A stretch of DNA of 64,000 nt from Escherichia phage EPFV3-03/2025. The DNA is taken from the sequence record PV435126.1; one strand, given 5' to 3'. The first letter of the stretch is position 1, and each line of letters begins with the position of its first letter. The translations under genes were made by a program, and so were the position numbers. Below, in pieces: positions 1-45,379 of the stretch. The notes beneath the pieces were generated by a model. It saw only the letters and a list, made by a program, of their open reading frames with translations, made no database searches and was not told the origin of the DNA.

Positions 1-373
1 TTGTCACGGTCCGGCGGCGAAAGGATTCGAAATCGATGGTAAACTAATTATTGTCAATGTTGACGGGGAAGAGGTTGCAGTATATCCGGTGGCAGACGTT
101 AAAAGCCGTCTACAATGCCGCATGGATGTTACCGCCTATCAGCTTGATCCGGTCCGCATAGTTGCCCTGGTCCTGGAAGAAGAAATTAAAGCAATGCACC
201 ACAGCAACAAGTTTATTGGTGACGCTCAAGATAATATGAAGGTATGCCGCCATAAAGTTAATGAAGTGCTTAAAGAATATGGCTTTAAAGATCTGATGAT
301 CAAACGTGAGGAAAAATTCCGCTACCGTAACGACCTGGCAAATCGGATTTTTGAAATATACGAATCATTATAA
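1..373 (+). CDS. hypothetical protein, 5' partial (frame open to window start)
   Basis: ORF 89..373 has no in-frame stop upstream to position 2; followed by a hairpin plus T-run terminator. Confidence 0.5.
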   Translation, partial: CHGPAAKGFEIDGKLIIVNVDGEEVAVYPVADVKSRLQCRMDVTAYQLDPVRIVALVLEEEIKAMHHSNKFIGDAQDNMKVCRHKVNEVLKEYGFKDLMIKREEKFRYRNDLANRIFEIYESL

Positions 374-391
374 TTTTTTAACTGAATTATC

Positions 392-416
392 AAGGGGCTT
401 AGGCCCCTTTCTTTTT
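392..416 (+). terminator. rho-independent terminator
   Basis: aaggggc/gcccctt stem with ttag loop followed by T-run, directly after the stop at 373. Confidence 0.6.
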
Positions 417-1167
417 GTCTGCTCTTCCCCATACCATAAACGGCCCTACCTGACAAGTGGAATAATTGACGAGCCATCAATCCCGCACACTGTACAAATA
501 TACATGTAAAATAGCTATTGCATAACCTTTCATTGTGTGGTAGCGGTGCTATTTTTACCCGTTTTCTCTCCCAAAATTGCACGTAATGCAGCTATTGCAC
601 AAAATTTAACCTGATGCACATCTTCAGTATACTGTCAACAATTAAAAATCTTTATAAGTCATACACTTACACAAACCAAAAAGCGTGTCCTACGTGAAAA
701 ATCGGGTGTAACTATAGCCGACAGATCTCAGAATCCACGTACAATCACCATTCTATAGCCTGCAAAGTATTTATTCCAACCACAGAATAACGGAATAGTC
801 AATACTTGTATAAAATAATTATTCGTGTAAACTGCATAACATAAATCTTCTCATGTGTCAACATTTTTCGTAAACAGTCCGAAATTGTCACGATAGGTTA
901 CTATAATCAGAGAAATCTTTAGTCGTCTAATGTTTACTGTACATAACTATACTGACTGGAATCATTAGATGACTAAGAGAAAGATAAGAAATAATTAACA
1001 ATGTAATTGTTTTATCTGCAACAATAAGGCAACTATGCAAACGAATGGCATGGCGCGACGGAGTCGCGACATAATATAAAAGCAGTAACCATCACCCCCG
1101 TGATAGTTTGTCTGCAATCTATTAATCAGATCATAGTTGCCTTGTATTTAGTTAATCATGACATAAC

Positions 1168-1207
1168 AAGCAGGGCAACTATAGATCTTCTAATAGTTGC
1201 CCTGCTT
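1168..1207. repeat. perfect 15-bp inverted repeat with 10-nt spacer
   Basis: aagcagggcaactat / atagttgccctgctt arms around agatcttcta; the GCAACTAT core recurs nearby in both orientations. Confidence 0.8.
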
Positions 1208-2938
1208 TTATATTATGTCATATATTATTAACTTGTCAATTGTCACCTTGCTAATTGTTTTCATGCAAACGAATGTCATGGCTTATCATCTCTGTGTAAA
1301 CTGTCAATGTGTAAACAGTCTACGCAGGAACAATCTATACGTGAACAGTGAAACATGAAATAATAACAGTCGTTATTGTGTCGAAAGTGTCGTATTGTGT
1401 GACATTGTGTCAGACAAGTTTTTCTCCTCTTTGTCAAGTGCTGCATGGAAAATTTACAATCTGGTATGGTAGCATTTTTGCGGCCCCGTTTACATGCATG
1501 AGTGTATGTATAATCCTTGTTGTGTGGGCGTTTAGACGTCTGGACGGTCAGAAGTCCGCAGGTTAATATCTAATCTATTGGTCGCTAACTATATCCACCA
1601 CAAATAATAAGAAATACAATTGTTATATTCGTAAACAGTAACCCATGTTATCAATCCCTGTATGTATCGCCAGTGGTGCGCATAATGGGTATTATGTTAA
1701 ATTGCCCGTAATGATAACGATTCTCACAATGATAAGTATTCTCATTCATCCACACAAAATAGCTTGCAAATGTTGTGCCACTGTGTGAACGGCCTCGCCT
1801 ATTAATTTGCCTCACTGCCCCGATATTTGAGAATTGTTATAAGAATGAGAAGTATTCCCATTCCGTCCGCCTGGCAGCACTCCAGTCGCTACCGGCTCCT
1901 GACAGGGTAGCACTCCTGTAGGACAAGCACAAAATCTGGGCATAACTGGACCTGTTCAGATATTTCTGGCTGACTCTTCAGGTCTGTGTGGGAAAAGCCA
2001 ACCTCTCCGGCGGGGCAGGGGGGGTCTGCATGGCAGATTTCACCTGGAGCGAAACCCTTAAGGGTAAGATGGGGTGGTATTACAGGAAAAATTGCAGGTC
2101 AATTAAAAAATTTACGTGGTGTATGAAGCCCTCTTCAGGCAGGGCGTGTATTATGGGATGAAACCCTCTTCAGGTGATGATATTTGTGGGTGTGATATTT
2201 GCTGGAAAGCCAGATATGACGGGGCTCCCGGCGGGGATGGGGTAGTACAGGCAGGGAAAATGTGGGGATGTGGTGTGGTAAATTGATCAGGCAGGTAGGA
2301 TATGGAATATGTTACAAGTATGTTAAATATGGAGGTAGGATATTTGTAAGATTTGTGTGTAAAATCAAATACTTATGTGGTGTTGTGGTATTTTCTATAA
2401 ATAATTCAAGTTTAATAGGTGATATTTGTCTCCATCTACTTTGTGTGGTAAACAGATTCTAATTGAATTGGTTTACAAGTGTATATAAAGTATACAAATT
2501 AAAGATATAAGAAACCCCCCTCCCCCCTTCGGCTACCATTCACCTTTTCCTCTGACTGGTACTTAAACACTTATTCAGACTCTTCAGGTTATCACCCATA
2601 TATCATATGGCAGTGACTGGTGTCCTCCGGCCCCTCTTTCGTCACCCGTCCGCTTCGCCATGCTAATGCCATAGCTAACTGTTCGGTTGTTCACCCTGTT
2701 CACTCAGGTGTATCTCCATACCCCTTCAAACCGAAGAGAACAGAAAACCCGAATTACTCGGTAAAAGAAAAGAGAAGAACTTAATTTTATCAGGATAGGC
2801 AAGAATGTCAAGGCATGACTGCTCACTAAACAAGCAAACAGTCATGTGTGGGAGGTAAGTGATTGTGGTGGTAGGAAATTTAGTTGAAAGATGTGTTATA
2901 GGTGCTTCCAGCACTTTAGCCTGGCAGCTAATTGTGTG

Positions 2939-3154
2939 TCAGTCCAGCGGTTCATCCTCTACTTCACTGAAATCAATGTTCATGGTCTCTTCCCAACCAT
3001 CGATCTCAGCACAAGAGTGGAGTTCTTTAGGGTTTACTCCCAAAGCCTCAGCAACAGAGTCTATATTTAACACCTCTGGCAGGTATGATTCATCGAATTC
3101 AAGGTAAATCAGGCCACGAGTGTTGTCAGCTCCACCAAATATTTCTATCTTCAT
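2939..3154 (-). CDS. hypothetical small acidic protein
   Basis: 71-aa ORF starting MKIEI; last gene of the minus-strand block. Confidence 0.45.
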   Translation of the reverse strand: MKIEIFGGADNTRGLIYLEFDESYLPEVLNIDSVAEALGVNPKELHSCAEIDGWEETMNIDFSEVEDEPLD

Positions 3155-3274
3155 AAAATCTCCTCTGGGAATGAGAGTGTGAACAGGATTATACGTTCCA
3201 ATGCACTGGAATTTATATACGTTTGCCTCTTCAGGCCATGCTTTAGCATGATAAACTTGTGTGGGCTCGGTGCT

Positions 3275-3610
3275 TCATAGTCTGCCACCTCTGAACTCTT
3301 CGTTCTCAGGCATGATAGAGAACCAGATGGCTATGATGTCCTCCCACGTCAGGTCATCAGCCTCAGGGTCCACCTGGGACGGAGATAGAGAATCCTCAGA
3401 ATTGAAGTTTTTCTCTGCGGTCGCTTCTTCAGATGTCTCTTTAGGTGCATGTGTGTTGGTCATGTTCCACCCGTGAGTATTCCGGCAACAGCCGCTATGG
3501 ACGTAATGATCATCAGGATCACCACCAAAACCTCGGACAATGTTTTCATTGCGTATTCCATATTCTTCAAACGATGTGAGGATACTATCACAGGAGCTGT
3601 AATGTGTCAA
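3275..3610 (-). CDS. hypothetical protein
   Basis: 111-aa ORF; start uncertain (a promoter-like motif overlaps the first codons). Confidence 0.4.
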   Translation of the reverse strand: MTHYSSCDSILTSFEEYGIRNENIVRGFGGDPDDHYVHSGCCRNTHGWNMTNTHAPKETSEEATAEKNFNSEDSLSPSQVDPEADDLTWEDIIAIWFSIMPENEEFRGGRL

Positions 3611-3771
3611 CAGAAACGCCGCGAGGGTTGGTTAAAATCCGAGCGTATGGTGATTTGGGTCAAAACGGACGTGCGTTCTCGCTACGCTCGAAATAGAGAG
3701 TTGTTTGTAAGCAGCTCTTAAACGCTCTGTAATGATATTAACTACCTAAGGTATGGAATCGTGCACCAGAT

Positions 3772-3797
3772 AAAGAAAAGGACGCCACAGAGCGTCC
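3772..3797 (-). terminator. rho-independent terminator (minus strand)
   Basis: ggacgc/gcgtcc hairpin with T-run on the minus strand, just downstream of the gene ending at 3823. Confidence 0.5.
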
Positions 3798-3822
3798 TAG
3801 GTGCCTTAAATTTGATATTTTG

Positions 3823-4134
3823 CTATACCCATGAGGGCTTGTCTAGGTTGGAGTAGCTGAAGGGGGTCAAAAGGTGACTGTCAAAATCTTTCAAACTGTC
3901 CAAGTCTTTTTCCTCGTCCTGACACCATCTGTGCCTGCATTTATTGTTGTAGTGCATGGAATGCATAGCGTTCTGCAACTTAACAGGTACAAGTGATTCA
4001 GGAGTAGATAGAATTGTTGGGTATGCCAGGACTATCTCAAACAATGGAAACACATCGAAACTGAAGTCTATTTCTGCTGAGGTTGCTGGCATATAGGAGT
4101 ATTTAGCTGTCGTTGTAGACATAATCCACCTCAC
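3823..4134 (-). CDS. hypothetical protein
   Basis: 103-aa ORF, abuts the next gene. Confidence 0.5.
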   Translation of the reverse strand: MRWIMSTTTAKYSYMPATSAEIDFSFDVFPLFEIVLAYPTILSTPESLVPVKLQNAMHSMHYNNKCRHRWCQDEEKDLDSLKDFDSHLLTPFSYSNLDKPSWV

Positions 4135-4457
4135 ACAGGCTTGATAATACCTTCACCGAATAACTCTTCATATTTAATCTTATCAGGATCCCACTCCTGG
4201 ATAATTTCGAAGACAATATCCAGCCCAGGGATAATCACTTCTCCGGTATCAAGTCTGGCAAGAACAAAACCGGAAGGTTGAATGGTTTCCCAGTTGCGAC
4301 GATTAGAATAGATAACTTCGAAAATATCGCCAACCGCAATCTGTTGATCAAGGTGTTCAAGATTCTCTTTCATATAAACGCAGCGTATTTTCCGTGCAGG
4401 CCACAGGCCCCCTGCATCACGTTTATTTAGCTCTTTTACAGTAATCGGCATTAGCAT
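4131..4457 (-). CDS. hypothetical protein
   Basis: 108-aa ORF. Confidence 0.55.
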   Translation of the reverse strand: MLMPITVKELNKRDAGGLWPARKIRCVYMKENLEHLDQQIAVGDIFEVIYSNRRNWETIQPSGFVLARLDTGEVIIPGLDIVFEIIQEWDPDKIKYEELFGEGIIKPV

Positions 4458-4480
4458 TTCTGATCTTCTCCATAGATAGT

Positions 4481-4503
4481 AAAAAGAGGGGCCAAGACCC
4501 CTC
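4481..4503 (-). terminator. rho-independent terminator (minus strand)
   Basis: gagggg/cccctc hairpin with T5 run on the minus strand, downstream of the gene ending at 4511. Confidence 0.6.
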
Positions 4504-4510
4504 TTCGTTG

Positions 4511-4816
4511 TTATTCTGCAGAGCGTTTGAACAGAATGTCTGCTTCAGACATGTGCTCAACCTCTTCTTCGATTTTAGCTCGACGTTTTTCAGCTTCGTA
4601 GCGGATATCGAATTCGGTAGCCACCAATGACTTGATAAACTTAGGAGAATACAGGTGATCCTGTTTCTCGACAAGAATAATATCCTTGATAGCGTCTTTC
4701 AGATCTTTAATCTGAAGCTGAAGTTCCACCAGCTCTTCAATTGTTTTACGGAGGCGATCACGCTCTGCAGTGTCAGAAGGCAGAGAGGTGAACAGTTCAA
4801 CTTTAGATTTAGCCAT
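4511..4816 (-). CDS. hypothetical coiled-coil protein
   Basis: 101-aa ORF rich in E/K/L heptad-like sequence. Confidence 0.55.
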   Translation of the reverse strand: MAKSKVELFTSLPSDTAERDRLRKTIEELVELQLQIKDLKDAIKDIILVEKQDHLYSPKFIKSLVATEFDIRYEAEKRRAKIEEEVEHMSEADILFKRSAE

Positions 4817-4844
4817 AGTAAGAGTCTCCTTATATTGTTTTAAA

Positions 4845-5096
4845 TTAACGTTCTACAAAAATACCATTCAGTTCGATAACCAGGAATTTCTGATCTTCAC
4901 TATCGTCACGTGCTAGCACCTCACAGACGTAACGGTCATCTCCGTCATCATCACAGTCAAATACAAGGCTGAGGACTTTATCATGATAAATCTTCGACAC
5001 TACTGCCTCGTAAGTATTGCCGATTGTGAATCCAAGATAATCCCCGATGCATTTGACAACAACATGGTCGCCAGCATTTAAGTCAATCTTCGTCAT
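4845..5096 (-). CDS. hypothetical small acidic protein
   Basis: ORF 4845..5162 trimmed to the internal start MTKIDL, which has an aaggag RBS. Confidence 0.55.
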   Translation of the reverse strand: MTKIDLNAGDHVVVKCIGDYLGFTIGNTYEAVVSKIYHDKVLSLVFDCDDDGDDRYVCEVLARDDSEDQKFLVIELNGIFVER

Positions 5097-5251
5097 TACT
5101 GTGCTCCTTGGGTGATAATATGGTATGTAAAACTTTAACCAGAGATGTGAATAACGCCCCAAAACACACAGATAGCGCTAAAACGGATAAGGCCATCATT
5201 AAAGCTTCAGTAAAATCAGTCATTCCTCACCTCTTGTTAGTAACTATACTA

Positions 5252-5515
5252 TCATTTATCTTCGCCGTCAAGAACTTTTTTAAATATCTCAGGAATATCT
5301 CCTGTTCTTAGATAGCTCATGACCTCCCAAGGTTTCCACTTGAACTTCTTGCACAGTAAGGCAGCCGAGATCGTCTCGTTGCGAAAAGAAAGGATATTAA
5401 TATCCCACTCTGAGAACCCCAATTTCCGAAGAGTGGCTATAGAAATCCTCACAGCAACCCAACAAGAGAGGCACGCAACAAACGCCACTGCCACAACCCA
5501 CATCAGGATGTTCAT
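5252..5515 (-). CDS. hypothetical membrane protein
   Basis: 87-aa ORF with N-terminal hydrophobic segment WVVAVAFVACLSCWVAV. Confidence 0.45.
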   Translation of the reverse strand: MNILMWVVAVAFVACLSCWVAVRISIATLRKLGFSEWDINILSFRNETISAALLCKKFKWKPWEVMSYLRTGDIPEIFKKVLDGEDK

Positions 5516-5604
5516 ACAGCCCCCTTAATGAAATACAAGGCATAGTGTTAAGGTTGCTACCCAGCAAATAATTAACAGTGCCGTTGCAACCTTGGCAAGA
5601 TTTA

Positions 5605-5892
5605 TCATAGTGTCTCTAAAATTTCATACCCTTCGGGTCGGAAAACAAGCCACTCAGGTGCTCCATTTGGTCGATACGCTTTATACAGAACAACCTGATC
5701 TCGGCACATGCACATGGCTACATAGTTTTCATCAACACCTGCCTCCTGCATTGCATCTTCTTCTCCGGCAACAGCCTTGCTTACAACTTCCTTGGTAGGC
5801 AGGTGGGCGATCAGCTCGTCACCATCGTTAATTCCAAAATGACTGAGTTCTCCATTGGTATCTTTAATCTTGATCTTAACCAAATCTTTCAT
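5605..5892 (-). CDS. hypothetical small acidic protein
   Basis: 95-aa ORF starting MKDLVKIKIK; in tandem array. Confidence 0.55.
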   Translation of the reverse strand: MKDLVKIKIKDTNGELSHFGINDGDELIAHLPTKEVVSKAVAGEEDAMQEAGVDENYVAMCMCRDQVVLYKAYRPNGAPEWLVFRPEGYEILETL

Positions 5893-6221
5893 TAGTCTTC
5901 CTCCAGGTTCAAAGGTCCTAAGATTTCATATGCTAGATTAGAAGTTACCAGAGGGTCTTCTGCATCTTTAGTATTATACCATCCGTGAATAACCAGAGTC
6001 CCACTTTGCTTCATGTCTAACTGGAACTGTTCTGCCGTTTCCTCATCCATCTCCAAGATCTCCATGAGGTATTTGATGTTAGGAAGGTATGCAGCTGTTA
6101 CAGTCCCCTCTACCAGGCCTTCAGGCCAACCTACATCCGGATGACAAGTAGGGACCAGAGAGGTCAGCTTGATAGTGTATGCTTTTTCTGCACGAGCCTT
6201 CAGTAACGGATCAATTTTCAT
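5892..6221 (-). CDS. hypothetical small acidic protein
   Basis: 109-aa ORF; start overlaps previous stop. Confidence 0.55.
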   Translation of the reverse strand: MKIDPLLKARAEKAYTIKLTSLVPTCHPDVGWPEGLVEGTVTAAYLPNIKYLMEILEMDEETAEQFQLDMKQSGTLVIHGWYNTKDAEDPLVTSNLAYEILGPLNLEED

Positions 6222-6571
6222 TATTCTTCCTCCTCTTCGGTGCCTGCTTCCAGTAGTAAGTTAAGAACATCTTCAGCAGAAGGTTCGTAGAACTCTTGGC
6301 CTTCGTTGTCGATGATGCGATAGTCATCACCCCGAATAATCAGAGGATCGTCATCAAAACCTTCAAGACCTTTAACAACGACAACACGGTCGATTGCCAT
6401 CATTGTAAGAACTTTATCGACATCTTCCTCTGCTACACCATACTGCAGCAGAATGTCTTTGGTAGGAGGGACAGCATCCACCACAACACCGTTACCAAAA
6501 CCTTCCGGAAGTTTAGCTAAAATATCTTCCGGAACCACATTCATATCAAAACCTGTGATCTCTACTTTCAT
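6221..6571 (-). CDS. hypothetical small acidic protein (MK-V/I-E/K family)
   Basis: 116-aa ORF starting MKVEITG with poly-E C-terminus. Confidence 0.55.
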   Translation of the reverse strand: MKVEITGFDMNVVPEDILAKLPEGFGNGVVVDAVPPTKDILLQYGVAEEDVDKVLTMMAIDRVVVVKGLEGFDDDPLIIRGDDYRIIDNEGQEFYEPSAEDVLNLLLEAGTEEEEE

Positions 6572-6832
6572 TTACAGAACCTCTTCGTCAACTACTTCAT
6601 AAAAATGGCTTGGGATTGCAATGGCGTTCTCGCCTTCACCTAAGAACACTGTCCCACTAACGATTAACATTAGAAGAACGTCTGCGATACCTTCCTCGGG
6701 GACGTTGCCAAAACCTTTAATCAGCTCGTAGGTTGGAAGATTTACCTCTAAGATGTCACCATCTTTGGAGCGGAAATCAACACCATCCTGAATCTCTGCC
6801 GTTTCAAGGTTTTTCAATTTAATCTTCATCAA
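6572..6832 (-). CDS. hypothetical small acidic protein (MK-V/I-K family)
   Basis: 86-aa ORF starting MMKIKL, ending YEVVDEEVL; TTGACA-N17-AATAAT promoter-like motif upstream on the minus strand. Confidence 0.55.
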   Translation of the reverse strand: MMKIKLKNLETAEIQDGVDFRSKDGDILEVNLPTYELIKGFGNVPEEGIADVLLMLIVSGTVFLGEGENAIAIPSHFYEVVDEEVL

Positions 6833-6908
6833 TCAGTCTCCTGTCTTGTTAAGATGAAGGTATTATTGCACACAGGGTTGGTGTTGTCAACACCTGTGTG
6901 GAATAAAA

Positions 6909-7304
6909 TTACTGAAACAGTGCAGATAAATTACCTTCTGGTGGGAACTTATCTGCCAAGAACGGAGTCAGAACAGTGGCCTTCTGAAGATCTGGAGTCC
7001 ACTCGTTGTTCAGAACATCCCAGTAGTACGCAATGTTGCTGTGTGGGTGCCGCATTACGAACTTTTTCCCTTCGTAGTCAGTTGAAACCTCTACAGAAGA
7101 AATAACAACAGAATCTTCAAGAGTTTCTTCATAGAAAGATCCACCCTCGAATTTCCAACGAGATGCAAGAGCTCCTGCCTTAAACGCTGCAGATAACGGA
7201 CTGTCGGCAAGAACATACATTTCTTGCACTCTGTCGCTACGATCTTTGCTTCTTACGTTGTATACAGTATCTGAGCTATACTCAACACGGTATAGACTTA
7301 CCAT
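6909..7304 (-). CDS. hypothetical protein, paralog of 9107..9505
   Basis: 131 aa; shares HPxS..YW..WTP motif with the ORF at 9107..9505. Confidence 0.6.
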   Translation of the reverse strand: MVSLYRVEYSSDTVYNVRSKDRSDRVQEMYVLADSPLSAAFKAGALASRWKFEGGSFYEETLEDSVVISSVEVSTDYEGKKFVMRHPHSNIAYYWDVLNNEWTPDLQKATVLTPFLADKFPPEGNLSALFQ

Positions 7305-7636
7305 TACCGCACCTCCTCAATAACTTCCACATCTGAACCTACCACAAATGCAAAAGGGCAGGTTTCATGAAAGACATCCGGATCGCCGCCAAGCTTGCTA
7401 ACTATTTCTCCACCACTAATAAACACAAGCTCACCGATATTCATCAGATTGCTGAAATAGTATCCATAATGATTAAAGAATGCAGCAGGGTCAGGCAGAC
7501 TAGTAGCCTCAAGCTCTACATCGGTTGAGATTACTTTCTTATCATACCCTCTGGCCTTTTGAGATGCAAGATCTGCAGAATCCTCAGGCGACCGGAGATG
7601 CACAGGAATTGTTTCACCAATAAAGCGTACTTTCAT
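7304..7636 (-). CDS. hypothetical small acidic protein
   Basis: ORF 7304..7663 trimmed to internal start MKVRFIG to avoid overlap; ends VEVIEEVR. Confidence 0.5.
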   Translation of the reverse strand: MKVRFIGETIPVHLRSPEDSADLASQKARGYDKKVISTDVELEATSLPDPAAFFNHYGYYFSNLMNIGELVFISGGEIVSKLGGDPDVFHETCPFAFVVGSDVEVIEEVR

Positions 7637-7640
7637 ATTC

Positions 7641-7904
7641 TCACCCAACAACCATAGCTTCAAAAGGGGTCATAAACGAATAAACAGCATTATCATCTGC
7701 TTCAGGAAATGCCCCCAAAGACTTCATGTCTGAGCCCTTGACAAATACAAGGTTCTGATCAAAAGCTTCTTGTGGATCAATCCGATACATATTTCGTAGG
7801 GTATCACTTACCTCATCATCAAGAGGCGAGTATGCTGTGCACGTTTTTCCAATCAAGCTTTGAGAATCAGGGTATCCACCTGAAGTTTTAAAATAAACAA
7901 TCAT
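7641..7904 (-). CDS. hypothetical small acidic protein
   Basis: 87-aa ORF. Confidence 0.5.
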   Translation of the reverse strand: MIVYFKTSGGYPDSQSLIGKTCTAYSPLDDEVSDTLRNMYRIDPQEAFDQNLVFVKGSDMKSLGAFPEADDNAVYSFMTPFEAMVVG

Positions 7905-7992
7905 ACAGTATCACCTCTGGTAAGAGATGGGGATTCCTTTCCCACAAATAATTACAAACCTTTCTTGTCGAGGAAGTATGGCTAACCCAAGA

Positions 7993-8262
7993 TTACTCCT
8001 CTACAACCTCATACACATCCGGAGTTACAATCAACTCTTCTCCGTTGCCTGGAGCAACAAACACTACCAAACCTTCCGGTGTGTGCTTTTTAGCCATCTC
8101 GATGACATCTTCTCGCAGAGCTGGCTCCATCAAATCAAAACCTTCACCCAGAGCATCACGAACCACCTTCATGTAGTCCACTGGTTGTGCTTCAACGATC
8201 ATGCCTTCAACCAGTCCGCAGTTTTTGTCTGCCAGCTCAGTTTTGAATAATTTAATTTTCAT
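7993..8262 (-). CDS. hypothetical small acidic protein (MK-V/I-K family)
   Basis: 89 aa starting MKIKLF; GMIVEA motif shared with 13415..13648; ends YEVVEE. Confidence 0.55.
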   Translation of the reverse strand: MKIKLFKTELADKNCGLVEGMIVEAQPVDYMKVVRDALGEGFDLMEPALREDVIEMAKKHTPEGLVVFVAPGNGEELIVTPDVYEVVEE

Positions 8263-8399
8263 TTAGAGGTCTCCTCAATTATTTGATATTAATAGCCGTA
8301 ACCTAACACATTAACTACAACTGCGATTGCAAACATAATTTCAAAGCATGCAATCTCTACATTTGGGACTAATTTCTTAATCATACCCATTGTAGCACC

Positions 8400-8717
8400 T
8401 CAATCCCAAAAGTCAATCTTTACTTTACCTTTTCCCTTACCTTTCTTTCCACCGCATTTAGCCAACTGGCGTGCTGCAACATCCACCATACGGTCAGTTG
8501 CCTCGTAAGCATCGCTACCTTTAGCTTTGGCGATAACTTCTTTCCCAGAATTGTCAAAAATAAAAGCCATAACTTCCTGGTGATCATTTTCAACTTTTAC
8601 ACTCACACGTGCATAGTTGGCAGATGGGTGCAAACGCTCCAGTTTGGACATTTTGTGGGAAATGAAAGACACCATACCTTCAGTGATCTCTACGTTGCCA
8701 GTGATTTCAATCTGCAT
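8400..8717 (-). CDS. ribosome hibernation promoting factor / RaiA-like protein
   Basis: MQIEITGNVEITEGM...KLERL...VKVE...RQLAK resembles the HPF/YfiA family N-terminus MQLNITGxNVEITxA..KLE and C-terminal RQL(N/T)K, as recalled from the E. coli proteins; TTGACA-N17-TATCAT promoter upstream. Confidence 0.7.
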   Translation of the reverse strand: MQIEITGNVEITEGMVSFISHKMSKLERLHPSANYARVSVKVENDHQEVMAFIFDNSGKEVIAKAKGSDAYEATDRMVDVAARQLAKCGGKKGKGKGKVKIDFWD

Positions 8718-8798
8718 AACGTGCTCCTTTTAAAGAAGAGGGAACCAAACCCTCTTTGAAAATAATGATACTAAAGATCAAATGTTGTGTCAACAGTT

Positions 8799-9089
8799 TT
8801 ACAGCTTGTCGTCGATAGTTTTTAAAATATCTACTGCAAGATCTGCCATTTTACGAACATACTCTGCAAACTCAACAGGATCCTTGATCAATGAGTTCAC
8901 AGGGTCGTACCCTAGAGCGTTCAAAATGGCTGCAGCATCTACAACCTTCTCATCATTTGCGAAGATCTCTCCGTCAAACTTGTAGGTCCATTTTGAGTCA
9001 ATCTTGGCAGGGAAGGATTGGTCAACGCTTGTTACACCATCCTTTTTAAACGCTCCGGGGTTATCAGTGTCCAGAACTAAATCCATCAT
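8799..9089 (-). CDS. hypothetical protein
   Basis: 96-aa ORF. Confidence 0.5.
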   Translation of the reverse strand: MMDLVLDTDNPGAFKKDGVTSVDQSFPAKIDSKWTYKFDGEIFANDEKVVDAAAILNALGYDPVNSLIKDPVEFAEYVRKMADLAVDILKTIDDKL

Positions 9090-9106
9090 GTTAGTACCTC
9101 ACTGTT

Positions 9107-9505
9107 TCAGTTTAGCTTTTCTTCAACAACCCCATAACTTGGGGCAGAGTCAAGAGCTTTCTGGTTTAAAAGTGGCGTAGCAGAATCTGCAAACGGTGTC
9201 CAAGTTTTTGTTCTGGCATTCCAGTAATGCTTCACTCTAGAATCTGGATGCACTATAACAAAAACTTTTTCACTTGTCAACACATTAATTTCTTCCACAC
9301 CCTTGCTGATAATTTCTCCGTCATATCCTCCGGTCTGGTATCCTTCGTACCAGGTTCTTGCATAGGCATAGCCAGCCTGCCAGCATGCAGCCTCCTCCGA
9401 GGTGGAGACTACGTAGAAGTCTTTCTCAAATTCTGGGATACGCCCTTGCTTTACGCTCCAAGCTCCGCGAATTTTCATTGTAACTTTGAACAGTTTGTTT
9501 TTCAC
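9107..9505 (-). CDS. hypothetical protein, paralog of 6909..7304
   Basis: 132 aa; VIVHPDSRVKHYWNARTKTWTP matches VMRHPHSNIAYYWDVLNNEWTP in 6909..7304. Confidence 0.6.
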   Translation of the reverse strand: MKNKLFKVTMKIRGAWSVKQGRIPEFEKDFYVVSTSEEAACWQAGYAYARTWYEGYQTGGYDGEIISKGVEEINVLTSEKVFVIVHPDSRVKHYWNARTKTWTPFADSATPLLNQKALDSAPSYGVVEEKLN

Positions 9506-9517
9506 AACGGTTACCTA

Positions 9518-9772
9518 TTACAGCTCTACAATATCTGCATCTGACCCTGCCCCAAAGGCATAATAGGACTCTTTCCCGAAATAATATTCAGGTGCACCAG
9601 CGGCGATCAGGTCTGATCCTAAGATAAACACCACGTTGTGGCCTACATAACTATGATGTTGCCGCACAGGATCATCCCACGGTAACCCTTCAAAGTATAC
9701 CGCAGGAACGACCTTTCCCTTCAGGAAGGATTGTCCCAAGTAGACGTTAGAATCAAGAATTTTAACCTTCAT
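9518..9772 (-). CDS. hypothetical small acidic protein (MKVK-L family)
   Basis: 84 aa; MKVKILDSNVYLGQ..GKVV..DLIAAGA..IVEL, paralog of 9762..9989 and 13415..13648. Confidence 0.6.
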   Translation of the reverse strand: MKVKILDSNVYLGQSFLKGKVVPAVYFEGLPWDDPVRQHHSYVGHNVVFILGSDLIAAGAPEYYFGKESYYAFGAGSDADIVEL

Positions 9773-9989
9773 GATCGTCCTCCACTATCTCTACATCCTC
9801 ACCTAGGGCAAAGTTGTAGGTCCACTGACTGTCAAAGCAGTCCTGAGATGCACCAGCGGCAATAAGATCTGCTCCTTTTATTTTTAAAAGGTCAGGGTAA
9901 TCTTCGTTAGGGACAGCAGTAAACACTTTTCCTACTAAAGGCTCCTGACCAATATAGAAGCTTGAATCTAAAACTTTAACTTTCATCAA
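9762..9989 (-). CDS. hypothetical small acidic protein (MKVK-L family)
   Basis: 75 aa; MMKVKVLDSSFYIGQ..GKVF..DLIAAGA..EIVED; overlaps neighbour by about 10 nt. Confidence 0.6.
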   Translation of the reverse strand: MMKVKVLDSSFYIGQEPLVGKVFTAVPNEDYPDLLKIKGADLIAAGASQDCFDSQWTYNFALGEDVEIVEDDHEG

Positions 9990-10273
9990 CGGTCTCCATC
10001 AGGTGGTTGTGGGACGTAAACACTGTTACGAATATCGTCCGCAGTATAGTAATAAGTGTCTCCAACCCTATCTCTGGCTGCAATGTACTCTGCTATACCA
10101 ATAAGTGCCATTGATTTGGTGGCGTATCTTCCCAACTCGTTAGCTCCCCAGTAGAATTTAGACCAATAGGGAATAAGACCGAACAAATATACCTTTTGAC
10201 GAACTTCCCAGTAAGTGCCTTTCCCGACAAGTTTAAACTCGACTTCACCACTGTTAATCTTTTTCATTATCAA
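9986..10273 (-). CDS. hypothetical protein
   Basis: 95-aa ORF, start overlaps previous stop. Confidence 0.5.
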   Translation of the reverse strand: MIMKKINSGEVEFKLVGKGTYWEVRQKVYLFGLIPYWSKFYWGANELGRYATKSMALIGIAEYIAARDRVGDTYYYTADDIRNSVYVPQPPDGDR

Positions 10274-10566
10274 TCTCCCTCCACCGTGGTCGGATTGTCA
10301 GTAAGAAATTGAGCATTAGCTGGAGGCACACCTGACATTTTCCACACAACCATAAGTTTGTAACCCGGAACCCTATTAAGTGCAGATCGAGTAGAGTTTG
10401 TGCACGTATACTTTCGCTTTCCAAACCCGTTCTCCATCATAATCCAGTACCCAGTATCTTTGTCACCAGGTATCGGTAGACCACCTTCATCAACCCACTG
10501 AATGGACCACGGCACGATGGCTACAGCTTTATATTTAAACTTTTTAAACCACTCAAAAAGTTTCAT
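10270..10566 (-). CDS. hypothetical protein
   Basis: 98-aa ORF. Confidence 0.5.
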   Translation of the reverse strand: MKLFEWFKKFKYKAVAIVPWSIQWVDEGGLPIPGDKDTGYWIMMENGFGKRKYTCTNSTRSALNRVPGYKLMVVWKMSGVPPANAQFLTDNPTTVEGD

Positions 10567-10661
10567 AATTCAGCCCCGCATAGACATAATCACTATAAAC
10601 AGGCAAATAATAAATCCGAATGCCACGCCACCCATAAACGTTAATATTGATGCAATCATAG

Positions 10662-10847
10662 TCAATCAGCCTCGCTTGGCAACTCTTCTACCTTAACATG
10701 CCGAAAAGTGTTACCGTAATGGTTGATCCATGACATCAGCTCGCTTTCTTGCTCTTCCTCTGGGATGAACTCTCGAATGCTGACAAGTTTTAAGAAAACC
10801 CAATCACAATCTGCACCCATTCTACCAGACAGGCAATAGTGCTTCAT
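10662..10847 (-). CDS. hypothetical protein
   Basis: 61-aa ORF, weak. Confidence 0.35.
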   Translation of the reverse strand: MKHYCLSGRMGADCDWVFLKLVSIREFIPEEEQESELMSWINHYGNTFRHVKVEELPSEAD

Positions 10848-10865
10848 AAAACCCTCCCGCCTGGT

Positions 10866-11060
10866 TTAGAATATTGCTTCTTCCATTGCACCTGAGAGCA
10901 ACAAAGAGGTGATCTGGCTAACATTCATCTCAGACTCTACTTCCTCCCCTTTGAAAGGTTCGCGGCAGAATAGGACTGTTTCAGGACTTTTACTTCGAAC
11001 AATATAATACAAATCATTCAATGTGTTGTAGTAATAAGTGTTAAAACGTAAGTTTTTCAT
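10866..11060 (-). CDS. hypothetical protein
   Basis: 64-aa ORF. Confidence 0.4.
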   Translation of the reverse strand: MKNLRFNTYYYNTLNDLYYIVRSKSPETVLFCREPFKGEEVESEMNVSQITSLLLSGAMEEAIF

Positions 11061-11344
11061 TTTCTAGTCCCCTTCTTAGATTTTTGTGTAGAAACGCTTT
11101 CTGCAATACGAGACAAACGTTCTTCTGAAGCCTTGCCTATTCCAGGTTTTTTGAGTGGATTATCTTTATGACCACAATCCAATTGGATATTGGATACCTC
11201 TCCAACCTTGTAAGTCAATTCTAGCAAAAGGTTGTCGTCCTTGTCAAATGTTCTTACGATAAATTTTTTATCGTTCTCCTGAACTTCATATCTGGTACCT
11301 GCAGTATACAGCATGGTGCCATCAGCATAGGATATCCAGATCAT
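11057..11344 (-). CDS. hypothetical protein
   Basis: 95-aa ORF with basic C-terminus. Confidence 0.5.
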   Translation of the reverse strand: MIWISYADGTMLYTAGTRYEVQENDKKFIVRTFDKDDNLLLELTYKVGEVSNIQLDCGHKDNPLKKPGIGKASEERLSRIAESVSTQKSKKGTRK

Positions 11345-11706
11345 TGAGCCTCCTTCTGCTGCAACAGCATTAACTCTTTGTTAGAGATCTTTACTGCTGT
11401 TTTTATTGTTCCGTCTTTACGGAACCACGACCAGAACTCTACAGTGTCCCCACTATCAAGCAAAGCATACCCGTGGTAGAAGTCTTTGTCCTTAGACAGT
11501 TTCTCATCTATGTCTGCATCGACACATTCGTGATCCATAGCATTTTGCCTGAATGCATCGGTTATGCCAATGCACGCCTTGCTCTCAAGACTGGTATATC
11601 CGGTATCTTTTAATTCGGTTTCCCAAACCCAGTATCCTGCAAAAGCTACGACAGTTACCAGCCCCATAGCAGCTACCAACTTTAATACCGATTTAATCTT
11701 TGCCAT
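11341..11706 (-). CDS. hypothetical membrane-anchored protein
   Basis: 121 aa with N-terminal hydrophobic segment LVAAMGLVTVVAFAGYWVW. Confidence 0.5.
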   Translation of the reverse strand: MAKIKSVLKLVAAMGLVTVVAFAGYWVWETELKDTGYTSLESKACIGITDAFRQNAMDHECVDADIDEKLSKDKDFYHGYALLDSGDTVEFWSWFRKDGTIKTAVKISNKELMLLQQKEAQ

Positions 11707-11766
11707 TCTCTCTACCTCTTTCTTAACTTATTTAACTATGGCACATCCTTTGTGCCTCATTGCACA

Positions 11767-12228
11767 CTACTTAAACAACAATTCAAAATAGTGAAAAATT
11801 AACAGAAGTTGAATTACGCCCAGCACAACGGCAAGTATGTTAATCTTAGAATCAAAAAACTTCTTAACTTTTACTCTAAAAGGTTCCTTAATGTCCTTTA
11901 CGATCCTATCTATAGATGACCTCATATCTCTGATTACCATCCTGAACATTAAAGACGGATGATCCTTCTCTGTAACGGAATCGAAAACATACTCTCTTTG
12001 ATCATAAGGGCCGCCAGCTCTGCGTATTAACCTCTCCACAGAGACCTCGAACGTCACACCTGTAACGTAATCATCTATGACAAGTAGTGACGGGTCTTTA
12101 CCATCAAGAGGCATCAAAGTTATCTTTCCAGATTTTGTTAAAATTTCTCCTTTTTCAAGTAAGGTGTACCAATGCTCTCTGCCAAGGCTGTTGAGGCACG
12201 TTTTTACATATTTAACAAACATCGTCAC
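11767..12228 (-). CDS. hypothetical protein with C-terminal hydrophobic segment
   Basis: 153-aa ORF; C-terminal ILAVVLGVIQLLLIF. Confidence 0.5.
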   Translation of the reverse strand: MTMFVKYVKTCLNSLGREHWYTLLEKGEILTKSGKITLMPLDGKDPSLLVIDDYVTGVTFEVSVERLIRRAGGPYDQREYVFDSVTEKDHPSLMFRMVIRDMRSSIDRIVKDIKEPFRVKVKKFFDSKINILAVVLGVIQLLLIFHYFELLFK

Positions 12229-44566: not shown

Positions 44567-44641
44567 GCCCTGTTAGCTTAGTGGATAAAGCAGCGGCCTT
44601 CTAAGCCGTTGACACTGGTTCGAGTCCAGTACGGGGTGCCA
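44567..44641 (+). tRNA. tRNA-Arg (anticodon UCU)
   Basis: Cloverleaf by eye: acceptor gccctgt/acggggt, anticodon loop cttctaa, T-loop ttcgagt, encoded CCA. Confidence 0.75.
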
Positions 44642-44645
44642 AATT

Positions 44646-44732
44646 GGGGAGTTATCCCGTAGAGGTAGCGGTGTAGACTGTAAATCTATTGTCATTGCGA
44701 CTCGGGTGGTTCGACTCCACCACTCCCCACCA
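44646..44732 (+). tRNA. tRNA-Tyr (anticodon GUA)
   Basis: Acceptor ggggagt/actcccc, anticodon loop ctgtaaa, long variable arm, T-loop ttcgact, CCA. Confidence 0.75.
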
Positions 44733-44856
44733 AATTTATATTTTTAAATGCATAAATCATACAGATAATGACATTGATATTTATCGTCGTTTATACTAGT
44801 CACTAACTGCTCGAAAATCAGTGTCATTATCAGTGTAATTTATAAAGGAGGGTAGG

Positions 44857-44947
44857 GAGCAATGGTGCTCAAGCGGTCTTGAAAACCGTCCCGTTGAGGA
44901 TGACTCGATGATGGTTCGATTCCATTACTCTCCGCCACATTGTTGAC
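44857..44947 (+). tRNA. tRNA-Ser (anticodon UGA)
   Basis: Acceptor ggagggt/actctcc, anticodon stem-loop gcggt-cttgaaa-accgt, long variable arm, T-loop ttcgatt, CCA; exact 5' end uncertain. Confidence 0.6.
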
Positions 44948-45035
44948 CTTGTAATTAAGCGAAAGCCGGAAGCAGAACCGGATTATCAAATGTTACAGTC
45001 GTCATCGCCGACTAGCCACATGGTCAACATATTGC

Positions 45036-45134
45036 GCTAGGTAAGCCCTTTGGCAAGGGCGAGGATTTTTAATCCTGAAAATAGACGAGGTAGTCGTTGA
45101 ATACATAGGTGGTTCGATTCCATCACCTAGCACC
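45036..45134 (+). tRNA. atypical oversized tRNA-like element (about 99 nt; anticodon uncertain, loop candidate tttttaa)
   Basis: Perfect 7-bp acceptor pairing gctaggt/acctagc, D-arm gccc-tttggcaa-gggc, T-arm ggtgg-ttcgatt-ccatc, but about 30 nt between anticodon arm and T-arm. Confidence 0.4.
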
Positions 45135-45139
45135 TTTTT

Positions 45140-45215
45140 GCTGATGTAGCACAATTGGCAGTGCAATTGATTTGTAATCAATAGGTTGCAGGTTCGAGTC
45201 CTGCCATCAGCACCA
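45140..45215 (+). tRNA. tRNA-Thr (anticodon UGU)
   Basis: Acceptor gctgatg/catcagc, anticodon stem-loop attga-tttgtaa-tcaat, T-loop ttcgagt, CCA. Confidence 0.75.
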
Positions 45216-45216
45216 T

Positions 45217-45291
45217 GGCCCTGTAGCTGGAAGGTTCAAGCAAGCGACTCATAATCGCCAGACGGTGGTTCAATTCCACCCAGGGCCACCA
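45217..45291 (+). tRNA. tRNA-Met or Ile2 (anticodon CAU)
   Basis: Acceptor ggccctg/cagggcc, anticodon loop ctcataa, T-loop ttcaatt, CCA. Confidence 0.7.
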
Positions 45292-45303
45292 AATAATAAA
45301 TAC

Positions 45304-45379
45304 TCCGCGTAGCTCAGCTTGGTAGAGCGCCTGATTTGGGATCAGGAGGTCGAGTGTTCGAATCACTCCGTGGAGACCA
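45304..45379 (+). tRNA. tRNA-Pro (anticodon UGG)
   Basis: Acceptor ctccgcg/cgtggag with C1-G72, anticodon stem-loop cctga-tttggga-tcagg, T-loop ttcgaat, CCA. Confidence 0.7.

What the first reader, a model, noticed from the sequence alone, without database searches (positions are those of the whole stretch)
8400..8717. Phage-encoded ribosome hibernation factor (HPF/RaiA) homolog
The 105-aa product starts MQIEITGNVEITEGM and carries KLERL, a VKVE strand and C-terminal RQLAK, which I recognise as matching the N- and C-terminal signatures of the HPF/YfiA family (ribosomal S30AE fold). It has its own TTGACA-N17-TATCAT promoter. A phage copy could stall or stabilise host ribosomes during takeover, or act as a decoy.
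Basis: partly seen in the sequence, partly recalled or inferred. Interest (0 to 1): 0.7.

Follow-up and report, generated by a model that had tools for sequence, protein, structure and literature searches.

The report
Known rV5-phage HPF ribosome-factor homolog
The gene is a real, well-conserved phage copy of the bacterial ribosome hibernation factor HPF, but it is already annotated in over 100 rV5-like coliphages and was published and tested in 2019, so only its role in infection remains open.

Summary
Observation confirmed. Window 8400-8717 (minus strand) encodes a 105-aa protein. It passes the curated cut-offs of Pfam Ribosomal_S30AE (48.3 vs 23.7 bits) and TIGR00741 HPF/YfiA (45.9 vs 40.9). 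It matches E. coli HPF in the PDB (E 6e-12, about 40% identity). [quoted passage not shown] The TTGACA-N17-TATCAT promoter is present and conserved.

The window is an rV5-like Vequintavirus. The protein is identical to phage FV3's and 98% identical to rV5 gp139. The gene and promoter P144 are annotated in the rV5 GenBank record. Mizuno et al. 2019 (Nat Commun) described and tested this protein: expressed in E. coli, it was absent from salt-washed 70S/100S ribosomes and did not change 100S levels.

What I add:
- Strong purifying selection (pN/pS 0.03-0.18).
- A syntenic copy in an uncultured sister lineage (64% identity).
- Composition matching the phage background.
- Only about half of the published HPF-ribosome contact residues are kept (K80, K89, T53, H55, R33 and H95 are lost).
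- A lysine/glycine-rich C-terminal tail that is prone to frameshifts.

Verdict: already known, ordinary as a discovery. Its role in infection is unresolved.

The parts
8400..8717 (-). hpf-like CDS, 105 codons plus a TGA stop. It is the ortholog of rV5 ORF144/gp139 and is identical to the FV3 protein.
   Evidence: ORF list. Pfam, NCBIfam and PDB hits. 100% identity to FV3 and HMD-6, 98% to rV5.
8454..8717 (-). Residues 1-88, the S30AE/HPF core domain (beta1-alpha1-beta2-beta3-beta4-alpha2).
   Evidence: AF2 with a 116-sequence alignment gives block-mean pLDDT of 83-98 across residues 1-90, with elements E2-7, H13-29, E33-43, E46-55, E60-67 and H70-88. Foldseek: 4hei TM 0.91-0.93, 6h4n_x rmsd 1.2 A.
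8403..8453 (-). Residues 89-105, GGKKGKGKGKVKIDFWD. This is a lysine/glycine-rich, predicted-disordered C-terminal tail, 10 residues longer than the E. coli HPF tail. It is encoded by a purine-rich low-complexity tract.
   Evidence: pLDDT <50 for residues 91-105. Tail pI is 10.0 against 5.9 for the core. Frameshift or indel variants occur in Murica (99 aa), APECc02 (101 aa) and YN3 (103 aa). The sister lineage also has a basic tail with an aromatic/acidic end...KRTAKWDY.
8724..8729 (-). Shine-Dalgarno sequence AAGGAG, 6 nt upstream of the ATG.
   Evidence: Read directly from the sequence.
8765..8793 (-). Sigma-70-type promoter TTGACA-N17-TATCAT, equivalent to rV5 promoter P144.
   Evidence: Consensus scan, 11/12 match. 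Annotated as 'Sigma70-type promoter; P144' in NC_011041. Hexamers are conserved while the spacer varies.
8736..8756 (-). AAGAGGG/CCCTCTT inverted repeat in the 5' UTR. Judged not to be a functional element.
   Evidence: The fold is no more stable than shuffles (z = -0.38). The stem is disrupted in L007, L009, L010, L013 and L014 and absent in L002.

Best explanation
SHOWN: this is the Vequintavirus (rV5-like coliphage) ortholog of rV5 gp139. It is a diverged member of the HPF/YfiA (Ribosomal_S30AE) family and is closest to the short HPF of gammaproteobacteria. An ancestor of Vequintavirus and its sister lineage captured it long ago. It now has the phage's own base composition, is kept under strong purifying selection in essentially every genome of the genus, and sits behind a conserved host-type sigma-70 promoter with a good ribosome-binding site.

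INFERRED: it is made by host RNA polymerase during the pre-late part of infection, together with the nucleotide-metabolism and small-gene block. Like its cellular relatives, it inserts its alpha-helical face into the 30S decoding channel (the A/P-site mRNA/tRNA path) of ribosomes that carry no mRNA. The core contacts K25(=Ec K26), R83, K87, K91, D75 and E60 would mediate this, and the lysine-rich tail would run along the mRNA path toward the E-site and the RMF site.

The protein lacks several E. coli HPF contacts (K80, K89, T53, H55, R33, H95). Binding is therefore probably weaker or more salt-sensitive than that of host HPF. The likely outcome is YfiA-like: idle 70S ribosomes are reversibly parked and shielded from RNases, rather than dimerised into 100S with RMF. 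This would preserve the ribosome pool for phage late-protein synthesis in nutrient-limited hosts.

My confidence by level: family identity about 0.97; binding at the canonical ribosome site about 0.6; the specific 'parking/protection' benefit about 0.3. The single confidence value of 0.55 refers to the ribosome-binding, HPF/YfiA-like mechanism as a whole.
For: Family membership:
- Pfam 48.3 bits against a gathering cut-off of 23.7.
- TIGR00741 45.9 bits against a cut-off of 40.9, and the best NCBIfam hit is the HPF equivalog.
- PDB phmmer to E. coli HPF, E 5.5e-12.

Fold:
- The top 37 PDB matches are all hibernation factors, including ribosome-bound 6h4n_x (rmsd 1.2 A, 42% identity).

The gene is functional, not a relic:
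- 118 of about 120 Vequintavirus records carry it.
- pN/pS is 0.03-0.18 within the genus and 0.29 against the sister lineage, where synonymous sites are saturated.
- A syntenic copy exists in an uncultured lineage at 64% identity.
- GC is 42.8% against 43.0% for the window.

Contact residues kept:
- 3 of the 4 basic residues defined by mutagenesis in S. aureus HPF.
- 3 of the 4 ribosome-contact basic residues shared by E. coli HPF and YfiA: R83, K87, K91.

Expression signals.

Family functions taken from the literature: HPF occludes the A/P sites; YfiA antagonises 100S formation; abstracts stating that hibernation factors block ribonucleases (PMC7913689, PMC8406268).
Against: The only experiment is Mizuno et al. 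2019, PMC6375957. rV5 HPF expressed from pBAD24 in E. coli was detected in crude extract but not by MS in high-salt-purified 70S/100S ribosomes, and 100S levels did not change. The authors themselves list growth phase, salt stripping or genuine loss of binding as possible causes.

About half of the published HPF-ribosome contact positions are changed:
- K80->V
- K89->G
- T53->F (the m2G966 platform)
- H55->F (the uS9 contact)
- R33->S and H95 (the E-tRNA and G693 contacts)
.

The score is well below the HPF equivalog cut-off (55.8 vs 125). Expression timing is inferred from a promoter motif only. The structural model used an alignment of HPF homologs, so the fold match is not independent of the sequence homology.
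Confidence: 0.55

Rival explanations
1. Anti-hibernation competitor, the hypothesis of Mizuno et al. The phage protein occupies the HPF/YfiA site only transiently, and its longer basic tail obstructs the RMF site. Host RMF and HPF therefore cannot lock ribosomes into 100S dimers, and ribosomes stay recruitable for phage mRNAs in starved or stationary hosts.
For: - Contacts that give E. coli HPF its tight binding and its E-tRNA link are lost, which would fit a fast off-rate.
- The tail is longer than HPF's. Like YfiA's tail, it could run toward the RMF site.
- YfiA is a natural antagonist of 100S formation.
- The protein is not retained on salt-washed ribosomes.
- The hypothesis is stated in PMC6375957.
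Against: Any occupant of the A/P channel also blocks initiation, so a net activating effect needs finely tuned kinetics. Mizuno et al. saw no effect on 100S, although their cells had almost no 100S to begin with. The distal tail is truncated by frameshift in some isolates, which argues against a critical tail function.
Confidence: 0.2
2. Host translation shut-off factor. Early, abundant expression blocks 30S decoding sites to suppress host protein synthesis, including induced defences, during takeover.
For: - Canonical family activity is inhibition of translation by occluding the mRNA/tRNA sites.
- The promoter is strong and host-type, which implies expression before late genes.
- S. aureus HPF represses some mRNAs differentially.
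Against: There is no evident way to spare phage mRNAs. HPF-type factors bind vacant ribosomes, not translating ones. Arabinose-induced expression in E. coli was compatible with normal 70S profiles, and no toxicity was reported.
Confidence: 0.08
3. Neofunctionalised fold. [quoted passage not shown]
For: - Absent from purified ribosomes.
- Multiple contact residues that are highly conserved among enterobacterial HPFs are replaced, and the replacements are shared with or similar in the sister lineage: V/T80, F54, F/R52.
- Strong purifying selection nevertheless.
- Weak structural resemblance to T7 Gp1.2 and to dsRNA-binding domains.
Against: The most critical ribosome-contact residues (R83, K87, K91, K26 equivalent, D75) are retained. 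V or T at position 80 also occurs in some cellular homologs. The non-HPF structural matches are weak (TM 0.45-0.55).
Confidence: 0.15
4. Decaying passenger gene or mis-called ORF with no function.
For: Frameshifted C-termini in a few isolates. No phenotype is known.
Against: - pN/pS is 0.03-0.18.
- The gene is present in 118 records and in a sister lineage with saturated synonymous divergence.
- The promoter and RBS are conserved.
- Peptides were detected when the protein was expressed.
Confidence: 0.02

Closest known systems
rV5 gp139 / ORF144 (YP_002003641, ABI79209) and FV3 AEZ65272. These are the phage 'HPF' of Mizuno et al. 2019, Nat Commun 10:752.
   Same: This is the same gene. The protein is 100% identical to FV3's and 98% to rV5's. 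It has the same synteny and the same annotated sigma-70 promoter P144.
   Different: Only the last two residues differ from rV5 (FWD vs FGE), plus synonymous changes (pS about 0.27).
Short HPF (YhbH) of E. coli and other Enterobacterales (NF007780; PDB 2RQL, 4V8H, 6H4N)
   Same: - Single S30AE domain of about 95-105 aa.
- About 40% identity and the same fold (rmsd 1.2 A).
- K26, E44, N57, E60, D75, R83, Q84, K87 and K91 equivalents are kept.

   Different: - Score is below the equivalog cut-off (55.8 vs 125).
- K80, K89, T53, H55, R33, Y30, K93 and H95 are not conserved.
- The Lys/Gly tail is 10 residues longer.
- It sits in a phage small-gene block behind a sigma-70-type promoter, whereas cellular hpf lies in the rpoN operon (my own knowledge, not tested here).
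- No effect on 100S when expressed.
YfiA / RaiA (protein Y) of E. coli (NF007654; PDB 4V8I, 1N3G)
   Same: Same fold and same expected binding site. Like the phage protein, it has a C-terminal extension beyond the HPF length. RefSeq names the phage protein 'RaiA'.
   Different: Much weaker sequence match (17.6 bits vs a cut-off of 158; 22% identity). The YfiA tail is longer and ends acidic, whereas the phage tail is Lys/Gly-rich. The RaiA label in RefSeq is therefore imprecise.
S30AE proteins of other phages (Cronobacter phage GAP32, Escherichia phage PBECO4; phrog_8990)
   Same: Phage-encoded single-domain HPF-fold proteins in large myoviruses.
   Different: Only 20-23% identical and placed in a different PHROG (phrog_12469 vs phrog_8990). 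Mizuno et al. place the Cronobacter phage protein apart from the E. coli-phage proteins in their HPF tree.
Long HPF of Firmicutes and Thermus (S. aureus, B. subtilis, T. thermophilus)
   Same: Homologous N-terminal domain. [quoted passage not shown]
   Different: There is no C-terminal dimerisation domain, so it cannot dimerise ribosomes by that mechanism. The K84 equivalent is Val.

Membership tests
HPF/YfiA (Ribosomal_S30AE) superfamily | Significant match to the PF02482 / TIGR00741 profiles above the curated cut-offs | tested here: met
   PF02482 48.3 bits (cut-off 23.7), residues 3-88. TIGR00741 45.9 bits (cut-off 40.9).
HPF/YfiA (Ribosomal_S30AE) superfamily | [quoted passage not shown] | tested here: met
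   AF2 model with pLDDT 85 and the expected order of elements. The top 37 Foldseek PDB hits are all HPF/YfiA/pY, with TM up to 0.93. The model depends on an alignment of HPF homologs.
HPF/YfiA (Ribosomal_S30AE) superfamily | Conserved basic residues on alpha1 and alpha2 that contact 16S rRNA (SaHPF K27, R30, K84, R87; E. coli K80, R83, K87, K91) | tested here: inconclusive
   3 of 4 are kept in each set (K25, R28, R83; and R83, K87, K91). The K80/K84 equivalent is Val, or Thr in the sister lineage. V or T at this site also occurs in a few cellular homologs.
HPF/YfiA (Ribosomal_S30AE) superfamily | Binds the 30S decoding channel of vacant ribosomes | not testable with these tools
   The published test found no peptides in high-salt-purified 70S/100S, although the protein was present in crude extract. 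It is inconclusive by the authors' own account.
Short HPF (YhbH) equivalog, gammaproteobacteria | Score above the NF007780 equivalog cut-off | tested here: not met
   55.8 bits against a cut-off of 125. It is the best-scoring model but not at ortholog level.
Short HPF (YhbH) equivalog, gammaproteobacteria | Promotes the 90S-to-100S conversion together with RMF | not testable with these tools
   Published: no discernible effect on 100S upon expression in E. coli.
Short HPF (YhbH) equivalog, gammaproteobacteria | C-terminal contacts R33/K93 to E-site tRNA, and H95 stacking on G693 | tested here: not met
   Aligned residues are S32 and G93, and G95 lies within a longer tail.
RaiA/YfiA equivalog | Score above the NF007654 cut-off | tested here: not met
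   17.6 bits against a cut-off of 158. PDB YfiA hits have E 0.35-0.77.
Long HPF | C-terminal dimerisation domain | tested here: not met
   The protein is 105 aa with a 17-residue disordered tail only.
Vequintavirus gp139 orthologs (phrog_12469) | Full-length match and conserved synteny in rV5-like genomes | tested here: met
   phrog_12469 E 4.5e-71, residues 1-105 of 105. 118 records at >=94% identity. Same neighbours as in rV5.

The most novel reading that the evidence does not exclude
The phage protein is not a hibernation factor in effect but an anti-hibernation or ribosome-guarding device. It would be a deliberately weak, fast-exchanging HPF mimic. Its Lys/Gly tail would occupy the mRNA-exit/RMF region, which keeps host RMF, HPF and YfiA (or decoding-centre-targeting defence nucleases) off the ribosome. 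Ribosomes of starved gut E. coli would then stay intact and immediately usable for phage mRNAs. That would be a new class of phage counter-measure aimed at host translational dormancy.
Probability: 0.18. Interest if true: 0.65.

Novelty: already known. Interest (0 to 1): 0.25.

Why it matters
As a discovery it adds nothing new. The gene has been annotated since the rV5 genome record and was analysed and tested in a 2019 Nature Communications paper.

What still matters is the unanswered question of why a strictly lytic coliphage genus keeps a ribosome hibernation-factor homolog under strong purifying selection. The answer would show whether phages manipulate ribosome dormancy, which is the normal state of their hosts in the gut. 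The residue-level differences and tail variants listed here give concrete mutants and assays for that test.

Tried and rejected
1. 5'-UTR hairpin AAGAGGG/CCCTCTT (8736-8756) as a regulatory element. Rejected. The fold is no better than shuffles (z -0.38). The stem is broken without compensation in several relatives and is absent from the sister lineage.

2. Loss of K80 as proof of lost ribosome binding. Weakened, because V or T at that position also occurs in a minority of cellular homologs.

3. Single-sequence AF2 model. It had pLDDT 61 and was unreliable, including an apparent C-terminal strand. I replaced it with the alignment-based model, in which the tail is disordered.

4. Anti-phage-defence libraries: no PADLOC hit.

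5. Rfam: no RNA family in window 1-12000 at E<0.1.

6. Search for a closer cellular donor. An exhaustive phmmer search over 1.84 billion representatives found nothing above 45% identity outside the phage cluster. The donor therefore cannot be narrowed beyond gammaproteobacterial short HPF. The 1160-aa hit P0006 is a repeat-driven artefact.

7. IMG/VR scan with a degenerate peptide pattern. It returned only two more Vequintavirus contigs and was not informative.

8. Literature searches for a functional follow-up on phage HPF after 2019 found none in the held library.

9. Contact positions versus the rest of the protein. Identity to E. coli HPF at published contact positions (about 8 of 20) is no different from the overall 40%, so this gives no statistical signal for or against interface erosion.

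Full report
1. THE OBSERVATION

Upstream on the same strand there is a TTGACA-N17-TATCAT promoter-like site at 8793..8765, matching 11 of 12 consensus positions. An AAGGAG Shine-Dalgarno sequence lies 6 nt before the ATG.

2. WHAT IT IS

The sequence evidence for family membership is strong:
- It passes the curated cut-off of Pfam Ribosomal_S30AE: 48.3 bits vs 23.7, E 1.8e-12, residues 3-88.
- It passes the cut-off of TIGR00741 'HPF/YfiA family': 45.9 vs 40.9 bits.
- Its best NCBIfam model is the short-HPF equivalog NF007780, at 55.8 bits but below the ortholog cut-off of 125.
- The RaiA equivalog scores only 17.6 bits.
- Against PDB sequences the best hits are E. coli HPF (2rql, 4v8h, 6h4n), at E about 6e-12 to 2.5e-11 over residues 1-89. 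YfiA entries are at E 0.35-0.8.

The structure prediction agrees:
- A single-sequence AlphaFold model was poor, with pLDDT 61.
- With a 116-sequence alignment the model reached pLDDT 85. [quoted passage not shown] The tail from residue 91 to 105 is disordered.
- Foldseek against the PDB gave 37 hits at E<=1e-3, and all are HPF/YfiA/protein Y. Examples are V. cholerae HPF (TM 0.91-0.93, rmsd 1.0 A) and E. coli HPF bound in the hibernating ribosome (6h4n_x, rmsd 1.2 A, 42% identity).
- The model relies on an alignment of HPF homologs, so it corroborates the sequence result rather than testing it independently.

3. WHERE IT COMES FROM

The window is an rV5-like Vequintavirus, a group of virulent E. 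coli myoviruses of about 137 kb. It is 96% identical in nucleotide sequence to 120 phage records.

The protein is 100% identical to that of phages FV3 and HMD-6 and 98% identical to rV5 gp139. 118 phage records encode it at >=94% identity. These records already name it 'sigma 54 modulation factor', 'ribosome hibernation promoting factor' or 'RaiA'. The rV5 RefSeq record annotates ORF144 and the same 'Sigma70-type promoter; P144'.

In rV5 the gene lies in the transcription unit of genes 82-163. That unit holds the nucleotide-metabolism and replication genes, followed by a long run of small ORFs of unknown function.

4. PRIOR PUBLICATION

Mizuno et al. 2019 (Nat Commun 10:752, PMC6375957) list the rV5 and FV3 proteins among virus-encoded ribosomal proteins. 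They place the coliphage HPFs among gammaproteobacterial sequences. They hypothesise that viral HPF might compete with host HPF to prevent ribosome dimerisation, and they tested the rV5 protein.

Expressed from pBAD24 in E. coli, the protein was detected in crude extract. It was not detected by MS in 70S/100S ribosomes purified under high-salt conditions, and 100S levels were unchanged. The authors note that growth phase, salt stripping or real loss of binding could each explain this.

Mathieu et al. 2020 also record hpf in five new rV5-like phages. I found no later functional study in the held library. The finding is therefore a rediscovery of a known, published gene.

5. WHAT I CAN ADD

(a) Selection.
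- Within Vequintavirus, pairwise pN/pS is 0.03-0.18. The window's allele differs from rV5 at 18 synonymous but only 2 non-synonymous sites.
- An exhaustive HMMER search of 1.84 billion cluster representatives shows that the phage proteins form one isolated 50%-identity cluster.
- The representative of that cluster, P0004, is 64-65% identical. It comes from an uncultured phage lineage with contigs of about 125-137 kb.
- The gene sits in the same syntenic position there. The flanks align with Vequintavirus over only about a third of the stretch, at about 73-76% identity.
- Between the two lineages synonymous sites are saturated and pN/pS is 0.29.
- The next relatives are gammaproteobacterial short HPFs at 31-45% identity.
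- Gene GC (42.8%) equals the window GC (43.0%).
- The capture is therefore old and the gene is functional. It is not a recent passenger.

(b) Expression signals.
- Across ten relatives the -35 and -10 hexamers are invariant, or TATCAT becomes TATTAT, while the 17-nt spacer accumulates substitutions.
- The -35 context AAACTGTTGACA is also kept in the sister lineage.
- An inverted repeat in the 5' UTR is not conserved and not unusually stable.

(c) Ribosome-contact residues. I mapped published contacts through alignment A2. The sources were Basu & Yap 2016, Beckert et al. 2018 and bioRxiv 2025.10.07.680626.
- Kept (E. coli numbering): K26, E44, N57, E60, D75, R83 (the m4C1402 contact), K87 and K91. 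Q29 is replaced by Arg, which is the family consensus 'KLER'.
- Changed: K80 to V (T in the sister lineage), K89 to G, T53 to F (the m2G966 platform), H55 to F (the uS9 contact), R33 to S, and K93/H95 (the E-tRNA and G693 contacts).
- About 8 of 20 contact positions are identical, which is the same as the overall 40% identity. V or T at position 80 also occurs in a few cellular homologs.
- The interface is therefore partly remodelled but not obviously destroyed.

(d) The tail.
- Residues 89-105 (GGKKGKGKGKVKIDFWD) form a Lys/Gly-rich, disordered tail. Its pI is 10.0, against 5.9 for the core. It is 10 residues longer than the E. coli HPF tail.
- The sister lineage also has a basic tail ending in an aromatic/acidic motif (KWDY).
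- The coding tract is low-complexity. It carries a frameshift in Murica (99 aa) and in APECc02 (101 aa), and an in-frame 6-nt deletion in YN3 (103 aa).
- The distal tail is therefore either dispensable or error-prone in sequencing.

(e) Other phages. HPF-fold proteins exist in other large phages such as GAP32 and PBECO4. They are only 20-23% identical and belong to another PHROG, and Mizuno et al. place the Cronobacter phage protein apart from the E. coli-phage proteins in their HPF tree.

6. HOW IT MOST LIKELY WORKS

Shown: family membership, fold, conservation, and host-type expression signals.

Inferred: the protein is made by host RNA polymerase before late genes. It binds the decoding channel of vacant 30S/70S particles like its relatives. 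Binding is probably weaker or more salt-sensitive than that of host HPF, because several contacts are missing. Its basic tail would run along the mRNA path.

It has no long-HPF dimerisation domain, it lacks the HPF-specific C-terminal contacts, and it showed no 100S effect in the published test. I therefore favour a YfiA-like outcome: reversible parking and RNase-shielding of idle 70S ribosomes. This would preserve the ribosome pool in nutrient-limited hosts.

My estimates for this explanation:
- Binding at the canonical ribosome site: about 0.6.
- This specific benefit: about 0.3.

Rival explanations and their estimates:
- Anti-hibernation competitor, the model of Mizuno et al.: 0.2.
- Host translation shut-off: 0.08.
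- Neofunctionalised non-ribosomal binder: 0.15.
- Decaying gene, effectively refuted: 0.02.

The published negative result does not discriminate among these. High salt is the standard way to strip such factors (methods), and the cells used had almost no 100S to lose.

7. COMPARISON, NOVELTY AND VERDICT

The protein is a member of the HPF/YfiA superfamily. It is nearest to short HPF, but it is not an ortholog-level equivalog of either HPF or RaiA. The RefSeq name 'RaiA' is not supported by the scores.

The element itself (gene plus promoter) is already known, annotated and published.

Interest as a scan finding is low, at 0.25. The residual interest lies in the unresolved biological role, for which I list specific experiments.

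Noticed in passing
window ~600-2900: A stretch of about 2.3 kb has no ORF longer than 72 aa on either strand. It corresponds to the 2.6-kb 'non-coding' box between ORF163 and ORF164 of rV5. It contains an 18-nt perfect inverted repeat (1068-1085 / 1202-1219), a 20-nt direct repeat (1035 / 1263) and two AATTGTTGACA promoter-like motifs (633, 856, minus strand). There is no Rfam match. It could be an origin of replication or encode non-coding RNA.
   Followed up: partly
GenBank MG0656xx records (e.g. L014 = MG065672): Eighteen records are named 'Campylobacter phage' with host C. jejuni, and the one record inspected (MG065672) is flagged UNVERIFIED. They are 95-96% identical to this E. coli Vequintavirus, and that record is classified as Vequintavirus. 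The host label looks doubtful.
   Followed up: no
window 44567-45379 (+): A tRNA cluster: Arg-TCT, Tyr-GTA, Ser-TGA, Thr-TGT, Met-CAT and Pro-TGG. ARAGORN also makes an odd 99-nt call with a 4-base anticodon at 45036-45134, which the rV5 record does not annotate.
   Followed up: no
window 5892-10566 (-): The hpf gene is embedded among what look like paralogous small-protein families. Several 75-116-aa ORFs begin MK[IV]K[IVL] (6221-6571, 6572-6832, 7993-8262, 9518-9772, 9762-9989). A 131/132-aa pair (6909-7304 and 9107-9505) shares a 'YW...W-TP' motif. All are of unknown function.
   Followed up: no
window ~8290-8391 (-), just downstream of hpf: A 33-aa hydrophobic mini-ORF (MGMIKKLVPNVEIACFEIMFAIAVVVNVLGYGY) starts 9 nt after the hpf stop. 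It is annotated as ORF145 in rV5 and several relatives. It is preceded by a TTGACT-N16-TACAAT site with an extended -10 that overlaps the hpf 3' end. It is absent from the sister lineage L002.
   Followed up: partly
GenBank annotations of relatives (L008 APECc02, L010 A6-1; OR062528, MT884009): Annotation slips. Some records put the label 'sigma 54 modulation factor' on the next gene, the 89-aa ORF146 homolog. Others call hpf 'ATP-dependent protease La type I'.
   Followed up: no
L002-L005 (Logan/ENA metagenome contigs, 15-125 kb): An uncultured phage lineage is syntenic with Vequintavirus. It aligns over only about one third of an 8-kb stretch at about 73-76% nucleotide identity, and no phage record covers 80% or more of that stretch. 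It carries a 103-aa HPF homolog at 64% identity.
   Followed up: partly
window 8403-8453 (-) and relatives L007, L008, L013: The purine-rich tract that encodes the Lys/Gly tail (GGAAAGAAAGGTAAGGGNAAAGG) shows 1-nt indels and a 6-nt deletion among isolates, giving alternative C-termini. These may be real tail polymorphism or homopolymer sequencing errors.
   Followed up: partly
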